Shown in pieces: positions 12,440-12,608 of a stretch of 18,588 bases of DNA (its first letter is position 1; each line of letters starts with the position of its first letter). A program made the position numbers and the translations under genes. Source of the stretch: a virus (Duplodnaviria > Heunggongvirae > Uroviricota > Caudoviricetes); the IMG/VR virus record IMGVR_UViG_2526164690_000035, positions 1-18,588 of that record; one strand, 5' to 3'. The notes under the pieces are model-generated. The model was not told where the DNA came from and searched no databases. It worked only from the letters and a program-made list of their open reading frames with translations.

Positions 12440-12458
12440 TTTTCTTACCCAATAAAAT

Positions 12459-12475
12459 AAATTAATTAGAGCAAT
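12459..12475 (-). promoter_or_regulatory. P1 C1-repressor operator-like 17-mer upstream of ssb
   Basis: Minus strand reads ATTGCTCTAATTAATTT, 16/17 identical to the asymmetric C1 operator consensus ATTGCTCTAATAAATTT as I recall it. It lies 20-36 bp upstream of the ssb start and next to a possible -35/-10 pair (TTGTTA ... TACATT). Confidence 0.55.
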
Positions 12476-12608
12476 AATGTATATCTTTGAAACGTAGCTA
12501 ACAAGTGATTTGCATTATCCTGTGTCTTCTAAAGGGATCGAGTCAGTCGGTATTGGCTGTGAATGGGTGTTTGTCCTGGAGCGTAAAAAATTCGCTTATG
12601 AGGTCTTT

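What the first reader, a model, noticed from the sequence alone, without database searches (positions are those of the whole stretch)
12440..12520. Near-consensus C1 operator overlapping the ssb promoter
ATTGCTCTAATTAATTT (minus strand, 12475 to 12459) differs at one position from the 17-bp C1 operator consensus as I recall it (ATTGCTCTAATAAATTT) and sits just downstream of a plausible -35/-10 pair for ssb. This would place ssb under prophage repressor control. I found only this one copy in the window; my scan was manual and partial.
Basis: partly seen in the sequence, partly recalled or inferred. Interest (0 to 1): 0.4.

Follow-up and report, generated by a model that had tools for sequence, protein, structure and literature searches.

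The report
Known P1/P7 C1 operator at ssb
The 17-bp sequence is real and is the already described phage P1/P7 repressor-binding site Op21 (Ossb), which keeps the phage's single-strand-binding-protein gene silent in the prophage state, so this is an ordinary annotated feature and not a discovery.

Summary
Observation confirmed. ATTGCTCTAATTAATTT lies on the minus strand at 12475..12459 and matches the published C1 consensus ATTGCTCTAATAAATTT at 16 of 17 positions. About 2e-4 such matches are expected by chance in this window. The window is a P1/P7-like phage-plasmid of E. coli. The site and its flanking -35/-10 pair (TTGTTA 12504..12499, 17-bp spacer, TACATT 12481..12476) are identical base for base to P1. 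GenBank records annotate them there as Op21/Ossb and promoter Pr21/P2ssb, and as Op(ssb) in P7. The operator abuts the -10 and should cover about -6 to +11, so bound C1 should block RNA polymerase at the ssb promoter. Published rt-qPCR lists ssb among C1-controlled genes induced when C1 is heat-inactivated. A matrix built from 19 other annotated operators scores the site at 25.5 bits. All 83 P1-like lyz-ssb junctions examined keep a site with an invariant core. A relative only about 66% identical (Cronobacter phage JK004) has the same layout. One correction: there is a second strong C1-type site at 16309-16325 (22.4 bits), which P7 annotates as "hypothetical Op(pro)". Verdict: interpretation supported, already known, low interest.

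The parts
12459..12475 (-). C1 repressor operator Op21 / Ossb / Op(ssb): ATTGCTCTAATTAATTT, a 16/17 match to the consensus
   Evidence: Sequence read directly. Motif search. PWM 25.45 bits. Identical to annotated P1 and P7 operators.
12476..12481 (-). -10 hexamer TACATT of sigma-70 promoter P2ssb (former Pr21), immediately upstream of the operator
   Evidence: Transferred from the P1 AF234172 / AF125376 annotation. Sequence identical.
12499..12504 (-). -35 hexamer TTGTTA of P2ssb/Pr21, with a 17-bp spacer to the -10
   Evidence: It overlaps the -22 box of the divergent late promoter LPlyz by 2 bp.
12447..12455 (-). ssb ribosome-binding region, TTATTGGGT here and TTATTAGGT in P1
   Evidence: RBS feature of AF125376.2 transferred. 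One substitution relative to P1, shared with P7.
11951..12439 (-). ssb (162 aa, GTG start), the controlled gene. The start codon lies 19 nt downstream of the operator.
   Evidence: ORF list. Pfam SSB E=6.9e-40. Annotated Ssb in P1/P7.
12503..12521 (+). Divergent Lpa-dependent late promoter LPlyz (-22 box AAGTGATTT 12503-12511; -10 TATCCT 12516-12521) driving lyz (12609-13166). It shares the intergenic region but is not overlapped by the operator.
   Evidence: P1 and P7 annotation transferred, sequence identical. Lyz matches Pfam Phage_lysozyme.
16309..16325 (-). Second C1-type site, ATTGCACTAATATATTT (2 mismatches). It is the counterpart of P7 'hypothetical Op(pro)'. It is not part of the ssb control unit but belongs to the same regulon.
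   Evidence: 22.44 bits; P7 annotation; alignment with P1/P7.

Best explanation
This is the C1 operator Op21 (renamed Ossb) of a P1/P7-type phage-plasmid. In the prophage (plasmid) state, the phage master repressor C1 binds this asymmetric 17-bp site. The co-repressor Lxc/Bof strengthens that binding in P1. The site starts at the base after the -10 hexamer of the ssb promoter P2ssb/Pr21. If transcription starts about 7 nt downstream of the -10, the site spans about -6 to +11. Bound C1 would then occupy the start-site region and prevent RNA polymerase from forming a productive complex, so ssb is silent in lysogens. When C1 is inactivated (by the antirepressors Coi or Ant1/2, or by heat in c1ts mutants), the promoter fires early in lytic growth and supplies a phage SSB for lytic replication. 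Shown here: the sequence, its position, its identity to the annotated P1/P7 operator and promoter, its statistical significance, and its conservation. Taken from literature and annotation: C1 binding to this site and C1 dependence of ssb expression. Inferred: the exact transcription start and the steric-occlusion step.
For: The 17-mer is at the exact coordinates. The consensus is confirmed in print and by 21 annotated P7 operators. A PWM built without this site scores it at 25.45 bits, against 13.4-27.5 bits for the training operators, and the random-window maximum is 11.7 +/- 2.7. The expected number of chance matches with at most 1 mismatch is 2.2e-4. The window region is 99.9-100% identical to P7 and about 98% identical to P1. 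The operator, -10, spacer and -35 are identical to P1. GenBank annotations name it Op21 / Ossb / Op(ssb) with promoter Pr21/P2ssb. rt-qPCR in P1Cm c1.100 lists ssb among the C1-controlled genes induced on thermal induction (PMC4713147). All 83 P1-like loci with a lyz-ssb junction carry a site scoring above 15 bits here, in four variants (one scores 20.5, the commonest 25.4), and core positions 2-11 are invariant. Cronobacter phage JK004 is about 66% identical across the junction. It keeps ATTGCTCTAATAATTAT (25.0 bits) abutting TTGTTG-17 bp-TATTTT, about 20 nt upstream of its ssb GTG, while the flanks have diverged. Seven lyz homologs with no adjacent ssb have no such site. A plasmid 99.95% identical to the window encodes C1, matching P7 C1 at 280 of 284 compared positions.
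Against: No binding or expression experiment exists for this particular element. c1 is not inside the window, so the presence of the repressor is inferred from a near-identical plasmid. The promoter is weak by consensus (8/12) and a generic scan does not call it. The transcription start is not mapped here. The conservation of the core among close relatives is only suggestive: 0 of 10 core columns vary against about 21% of intergenic columns, P about 0.1. The primary papers (Citron et al. 1989 J Biol Chem; Lehnherr et al. 1999 J Bacteriol; Lobocka et al. 2004 J Bacteriol) could not be read here. Their content is used only through GenBank feature notes and my own recollection.
Confidence: 0.95

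Rival explanations
1. The site is a real C1 site, but its main or additional job is to block lyz-directed sigma-70 transcription. P1 annotates a predicted promoter Plyz inside the 5' end of ssb, and the operator would sit about 13 bp downstream of its -10 and act as a roadblock. The site would then be a bidirectional control element and not only an ssb operator.
For: The P1 record annotates a 'predicted sigma 70 promoter Plyz' (-35 TTTACA, -10 TATCTT) on the lyz strand just upstream of the operator. The operator lies between it and lyz.
Against: Plyz is only a prediction and has a 15-bp spacer. In this window and in P7 its -10 is TTTCTT, which lacks the near-invariant A at position 2, yet the operator is unchanged. 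lyz has its own Lpa-dependent late promoter LPlyz downstream of the operator. JK004 keeps the operator abutting an ssb-directed -10.
Confidence: 0.07
2. The site is intact but idle in this element. It would be a relic, because the mosaic plasmid has lost or altered c1 or its partners. The usual neighbourhood of darB, lxc and mod/res is replaced here.
For: The window is rearranged relative to P1/P7: darB is truncated and a foreign HTH/ANT module lies at the right end. c1 is not in the window. lxc was not located.
Against: The plasmid p88_0502-1, 99.95% identical to the window, encodes a full-length C1 matching P7 C1 at 280 of 284 compared positions. The half of that plasmid examined has about 14 strong operator hits, including the c1/coi cluster. 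The operator core is invariant in 83 related loci.
Confidence: 0.04
3. It is a chance AT-rich resemblance with no protein bound.
For: The intergenic region is AT-rich and the motif is AT-rich.
Against: The expected number of matches this good is 2.2e-4 per window. The site is identical to an annotated operator. It is conserved at the same position in a relative about 66% identical.
Confidence: 0.01

Closest known systems
Bacteriophage P1 operator Op21 = Ossb with promoter Pr21 = P2ssb (GenBank AF125376.2, M25412, AF234172)
   Same: The 17-mer is identical, as are the -10, the 17-bp spacer and the -35. It has the same position 19 nt upstream of the ssb GTG and the same divergent LPlyz.
   Different: Two substitutions downstream of the operator, in the 5' UTR/RBS region (window 12450 and 12442). 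They change the RBS from AGGT to GGGT and spoil the -10 of two merely predicted P1 promoters, P1ssb and Plyz. The gene on the far side of ssb is a porin (nmpC/ompC), where P1 has isaA/IS1/isaB.
Phage P7 Op(ssb) (AF503408 / NC_050152)
   Same: 100% identical over window 12250-12800, with the same porin neighbour. This is the same feature.
   Different: Nothing at the operator. Elsewhere the window is a mosaic: a TnpB insertion, a truncated darB, and a different left end.
Other monovalent C1 operators of P1/P7, e.g. Op(rep)/Op53 (kilA-repL), Op(lpa)/Op88, Op(dam)/Op68, Op(c4)/Op51
   Same: The same 17-bp asymmetric motif with the invariant core TGC(T/A)CTAAT, placed at promoters of early lytic functions.
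   Different: Different target genes. Op(ban)/Op72 is bivalent (two overlapping sites), whereas this one is a single site.
Cronobacter phage JK004 ssb upstream site (MZ188976, not annotated there)
   Same: The same layout: -35 TTGTTG, 17 bp, -10 TATTTT, then ATTGCTCTAATAATTAT, about 20 nt before the ssb GTG, with lyz divergent.
   Different: About 66% identity overall. The 3' part of the operator differs. No annotation or experiment exists.
Lambda CI / OR-OL operators
   Same: A prophage master repressor occluding early lytic promoters.
   Different: Lambda operators are two-fold symmetric, are bound by dimers with cooperative tetramer/octamer looping, and cluster at two loci. P1 C1 sites are asymmetric, and P1 has about 22 of them dispersed over the genome (PMC8546580).

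Membership tests
P1/P7 C1-controlled operator (Op21/Ossb) | A 17-bp asymmetric sequence matching ATTGCTCTAATAAATTT, with the conserved core TGC(T/A)CTAAT | tested here: met
   16/17 match with the core intact. 25.45 bits on a PWM built from 19 other annotated operators.
P1/P7 C1-controlled operator (Op21/Ossb) | Orthology to the described Op21: same locus, same flanks | tested here: met
   The alignment with P1 (two records) and P7 is identical across the operator and promoter. Feature tables name it Op21/Ossb/Op(ssb).
P1/P7 C1-controlled operator (Op21/Ossb) | Overlaps or abuts a sigma-70 promoter of the controlled gene | tested here: met
   TTGTTA-17 bp-TACATT ends at 12476 and the operator starts at 12475. 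It is annotated as Pr21/P2ssb in P1. Caveat: it matches only 8 of 12 consensus positions, so the generic scan is negative.
P1/P7 C1-controlled operator (Op21/Ossb) | The cognate repressor C1 is encoded by the same replicon | tested here: inconclusive
   c1 is not within the 18.6-kb window. The plasmid NZ_CP077568.1, 99.95% identical to the window, encodes C1 matching P7 C1 at 280 of 284 compared positions. The true source replicon is unknown.
P1/P7 C1-controlled operator (Op21/Ossb) | C1 binds the site in vitro | not testable with these tools
   Known for P1 only through the GenBank notes (M25412/AF125376) and my recollection of Citron, Velleman & Schuster 1989. That paper is not held here.
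P1/P7 C1-controlled operator (Op21/Ossb) | Expression of the downstream gene is C1-dependent in vivo | not testable with these tools
   For P1: ssb is listed among the C1-controlled genes induced after thermal inactivation of C1 (PMC4713147). Not tested for this element.

The most novel reading that the evidence does not exclude
The only mildly new angle concerns the second site (16309-16325), which P7 labels merely 'hypothetical Op(pro)' and P1 does not annotate. In this lineage it has two substitutions, both toward bases used in functional operators (ATTGCCCTAATGTATTT to ATTGCACTAATATATTT, 3 to 2 mismatches, 22.4 bits). It might be a genuine, selectively maintained C1 site that gates transcription across the prt/pro-darB divergent region. 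It could, for example, act as a roadblock to darB-directed transcription from PdarB, or repress an unmapped early promoter for the portal/head-processing genes. Together with Ossb it would then bracket the lyz-lydD-pro-prt block with repressor sites.
Probability: 0.25. Interest if true: 0.2.

Novelty: already known. Interest (0 to 1): 0.08.

Why it matters
It matters little as a discovery. The operator, its promoter and its target gene were described for P1 decades ago and are annotated in the reference P1 and P7 genomes. The result is useful as annotation. It identifies the window as a P1/P7-type phage-plasmid. It shows that the immunity wiring of ssb is intact in a mosaic, IS-laden derivative from E. 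coli. It also shows that the operator-at-ssb layout extends to a distant relative (Cronobacter phage JK004). P1 ssb itself is non-essential for lytic growth (CRISPRi, PMC10695390).

Tried and rejected
(1) The generic sigma-70/terminator scan of 12380-12660 called no promoter. This is explained by the 8/12 match of the annotated Pr21, so it is not evidence against it. (2) The primary papers could not be retrieved: Lobocka 2004 (PMC523184) and Lehnherr 1999 (PMC103783) are not held. Full-text searches for 'Op21/Op72...' returned only unrelated conference abstracts, and 'SSB-P1' returned nothing. (3) I looked for diverged lyz-ssb junctions with the Lyz protein in the genome and viral collections. 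The seven homologs at 50-72% identity (Serratia, Rahnella, Hafnia, Sodalis, Enterobacter, Pseudomonas) have no adjacent ssb and no C1 site. They serve only as negative controls, not as extra footprints. (4) Column-variability test among 31 distinct close relatives: the core is invariant, but P is about 0.1, so it is not significant on its own. (5) I considered the two extra P1 'predicted' promoters (P1ssb, Plyz) as the operator's real targets. I rejected this as the main role, because both lose a key -10 base in this window and in P7 while the operator is unchanged. (6) P7's Op(lydC) has no counterpart in the window. The left end of the window diverges from P7 before 1540, and the best hit there is 7.4 bits.

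Full report
OBSERVATION. Zhang et al. [quoted passage not shown] ATTGCTCTAATAAATTT' and count 22 operators on P1. The 21 'phage repressor C1' binding features annotated in the P7 genome reproduce that consensus, and Op(ban[a]) matches it perfectly. The one mismatch (position 12, A to T) falls at a position that varies among genuine operators: A13/G3/T3. The match is far beyond chance. Only 0.10 matches with up to 3 mismatches are expected per window, and none of 200 shuffles gave 2. For up to 1 mismatch the analytic expectation is 2.2e-4.

IDENTITY OF THE WINDOW. The region 11900-13200 is 99.9% identical to phage P7 and about 98% identical to P1. The whole window is a mosaic P1/P7-type element, of a kind found in hundreds of E. 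coli phage-plasmids. Bases 187-18588 are 99.95% identical to plasmid p88_0502-1 of E. coli O111:H11 (NZ_CP077568.1). The gene order around the site is ssb (11951-12439, minus strand; Pfam SSB) and, divergently, lyz (12609-13166, plus strand; Phage_lysozyme).

WHAT THE SITE IS. Three independent GenBank annotations cover precisely this 17-mer. AF125376.2 has 'operator 21 (Op21); binding site for the major P1 repressor protein C1', flanked by 'promoter of ssb-P1' and the ssb RBS. P1 AF234172 has 'monovalent C1-controlled operator Ossb; corresponds to former Op21' next to 'sigma 70 promoter P2ssb; corresponds to former Pr21'. P7 AF503408 has 'monovalent C1-controlled operator Op(ssb); controls expression of ssb'. 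An alignment of the window with both P1 records and P7 shows the operator, the -10, the spacer and the -35 to be identical in all four. The only differences between the ssb start codon and the -35 hexamer are two substitutions between the operator and the GTG, and the window shares these with P7; a one-base length difference in a T run lies further out, near lyz.

ANATOMY (all verified by script).
- -35 TTGTTA at 12504..12499.
- 17-bp spacer.
- -10 TACATT at 12481..12476.
- Operator at 12475..12459.
- 19 nt containing the RBS (TTATTGGGT, 12455..12447).
- GTG at 12439.
With a start site about 7 nt after the -10, the operator spans roughly -6 to +11. On the other strand, the Lpa-dependent late promoter LPlyz has its -22 box at 12503-12511 and its -10 at 12516-12521. 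It overlaps the ssb -35 by two bases but not the operator. A generic sigma-70 scan does not call the ssb promoter, because it matches only 8 of 12 consensus positions. That fits a modest promoter and does not contradict the annotation.

I built a PWM from 19 annotated P7 operators, leaving out the ssb and pro sites. It scores the site at 25.45 bits, inside the range of the training operators (13.4-27.5). A second site at 16309-16325 (-), ATTGCACTAATATATTT, scores 22.44 bits. The next best hit is 10.3 bits, and random windows reach a mean maximum of 11.7 +/- 2.7.

CONSERVATION. Ninety-one loci encoding a Lyz relative were fetched. All 83 that have ssb next to lyz carry a C1-type site scoring above 15 bits at this position. 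There are four variants: ATTGCTCTAATTAATTT x71 (25.4 bits), ATTGCTCTAATCATTTT x7 (20.5 bits), GTTGCTCTAATTATTTT x3 and ATTGCTCTAATTGATTT x2. The seven Lyz homologs without an ssb neighbour have none, with a best score of 4.1 bits or less. Among 31 distinct junction sequences, about 21% of intergenic columns vary. All variation inside the operator is at positions 1, 12, 13 and 14, and core positions 2-11 never vary. This is consistent with constraint, but with P about 0.1 it is not decisive alone. Cronobacter phage JK004 is more telling. It is only about 66% identical across the junction. It has ATTGCTCTAATAATTAT (25.0 bits) directly after TTGTTG-17 bp-TATTTT and about 20 nt before its ssb GTG, while the surrounding sequence has diverged. 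That is the same architecture.

MECHANISM. C1 is the master repressor of P1/P7 lytic functions. [quoted passage not shown] Coi and Ant1/2 inactivate C1 (PMC8546580). Given the position of the site, the most likely mechanism is steric exclusion of RNA polymerase, or a block to open-complex formation or promoter escape, at P2ssb. This step is inferred from geometry. In vivo, ssb behaves as a C1-controlled early gene. Ronayne et al. 2016 place it with dmt and kilA among the C1-controlled genes, and describe ref expression as lower than theirs and peaking slightly later after thermal induction of P1Cm c1.100 (PMC4713147). From my own recollection, not verifiable here: Citron, Velleman and Schuster (1989, J Biol Chem) defined Op21 by C1 binding, and Lehnherr et al. 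(1999, J Bacteriol) showed that ssb-P1 is fully repressed in lysogens. P1 ssb is dispensable for plaque formation by CRISPRi (PMC10695390), consistent with backup by host SSB. The repressor gene is outside the window. The near-identical plasmid encodes C1 matching P7 C1 at 280 of 284 compared positions, and the half of it examined has about 14 strong operators.

RIVALS. A chance match is excluded statistically and by orthology. A role in blocking a predicted lyz-directed sigma-70 promoter (Plyz in the P1 annotation) is unlikely to be the main function. Its -10 is TTTCTT here and in P7, against TATCTT in P1, and the predicted P1ssb -10 is likewise spoiled (TAAGAT to TAAGAA), while the operator is unchanged. 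An 'idle relic' reading is unlikely given the C1 gene in the closest complete plasmid.

COMPARISON AND NOVELTY. The feature is the same as P1 Op21/Ossb and P7 Op(ssb), so it is already known. It works like other monovalent C1 operators (Op53, Op88, Op68, Op51). It differs from lambda-type operators in being asymmetric and dispersed. The only slightly new points are these. First, the same layout is present in the distant JK004. Second, the second site (P7 'hypothetical Op(pro)', unannotated in P1) is closer to the consensus in this lineage than in P1/P7. That site lies inside the 5' end of a truncated darB and about 70 nt upstream of the LPpro -22 box, with no convincing sigma-70 promoter abutting it. 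Its function remains open.

VERDICT. The feature is already known. Interest is low (0.08).

Noticed in passing
window 16309-16325 (-): A second strong C1-type operator sequence, ATTGCACTAATATATTT (2 mismatches, 22.4 bits). It corresponds to P7's 'hypothetical Op(pro)' and is not annotated in P1. P1 and P7 both read ATTGCCCTAATGTATTT, and the window's two differences both move toward the consensus or toward bases used in real operators. It lies inside the 5' end of darB, about 70 nt upstream of the late promoter LPpro (-22 box 16232-16240), and no good sigma-70 promoter abuts it.
   Followed up: partly
window 16255-16740 and 16816-18588: darB is truncated. The reading frame from its ATG (16255) stops after 49 codons, and P1/P7 homology ends near 16738. 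Downstream, on the minus strand, are a DUF3944 protein (16816-17568), an HTH_3 protein (17584-18057) and an ANT/KilAC antirepressor-domain ORF (18187-18519). In the near-identical plasmid this is part of a region with three icd-ant modules next to c1 and cre.
   Followed up: partly
window 5272-6480 (-): A 402-aa TnpB/InsQ RNA-guided-endonuclease-family ORF (OrfB_IS605 + Cas12f1-like TNB + HTH_OrfB) is inserted between ddrA and ddrB. These genes are only 13 bp apart in P1.
   Followed up: partly
window 10602-11717 (+): A porin gene (nmpC/ompC-like, Porin_1 E=3e-148) sits between hxr and ssb, as in P7. P1 has isaB-IS1-isaA there.
   Followed up: partly
window 1-~195: The left end matches the terminus of IS4-family ISVsa5 copies in plasmid NZ_CP077568.1. 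P1-like homology (phage JL22) begins at 193. The adjacent ORFs are a hexapeptide acetyltransferase-like protein (264-836, -) and a tail-fibre assembly protein (1326-1823, -), with no lydC/cin and no counterpart of P7's Op(lydC).
   Followed up: partly
window 12442 and 12450: Two substitutions relative to P1, shared with P7, lie in the ssb 5' UTR. One changes the annotated RBS from AGGT to GGGT. The other removes a key -10 base from both merely predicted P1 promoters: P1ssb (TAAGAT to TAAGAA) and Plyz (TATCTT to TTTCTT). Both alleles are common among 31 distinct relatives.
   Followed up: partly
L008 (Cronobacter phage JK004 MZ188976) 810-826 (-): An unannotated C1-type operator, ATTGCTCTAATAATTAT, abuts a TTGTTG-17 bp-TATTTT promoter upstream of the ssb homolog of a distant P1-like phage. 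This implies a conserved C1-like repressor specificity in that lineage.
   Followed up: partly
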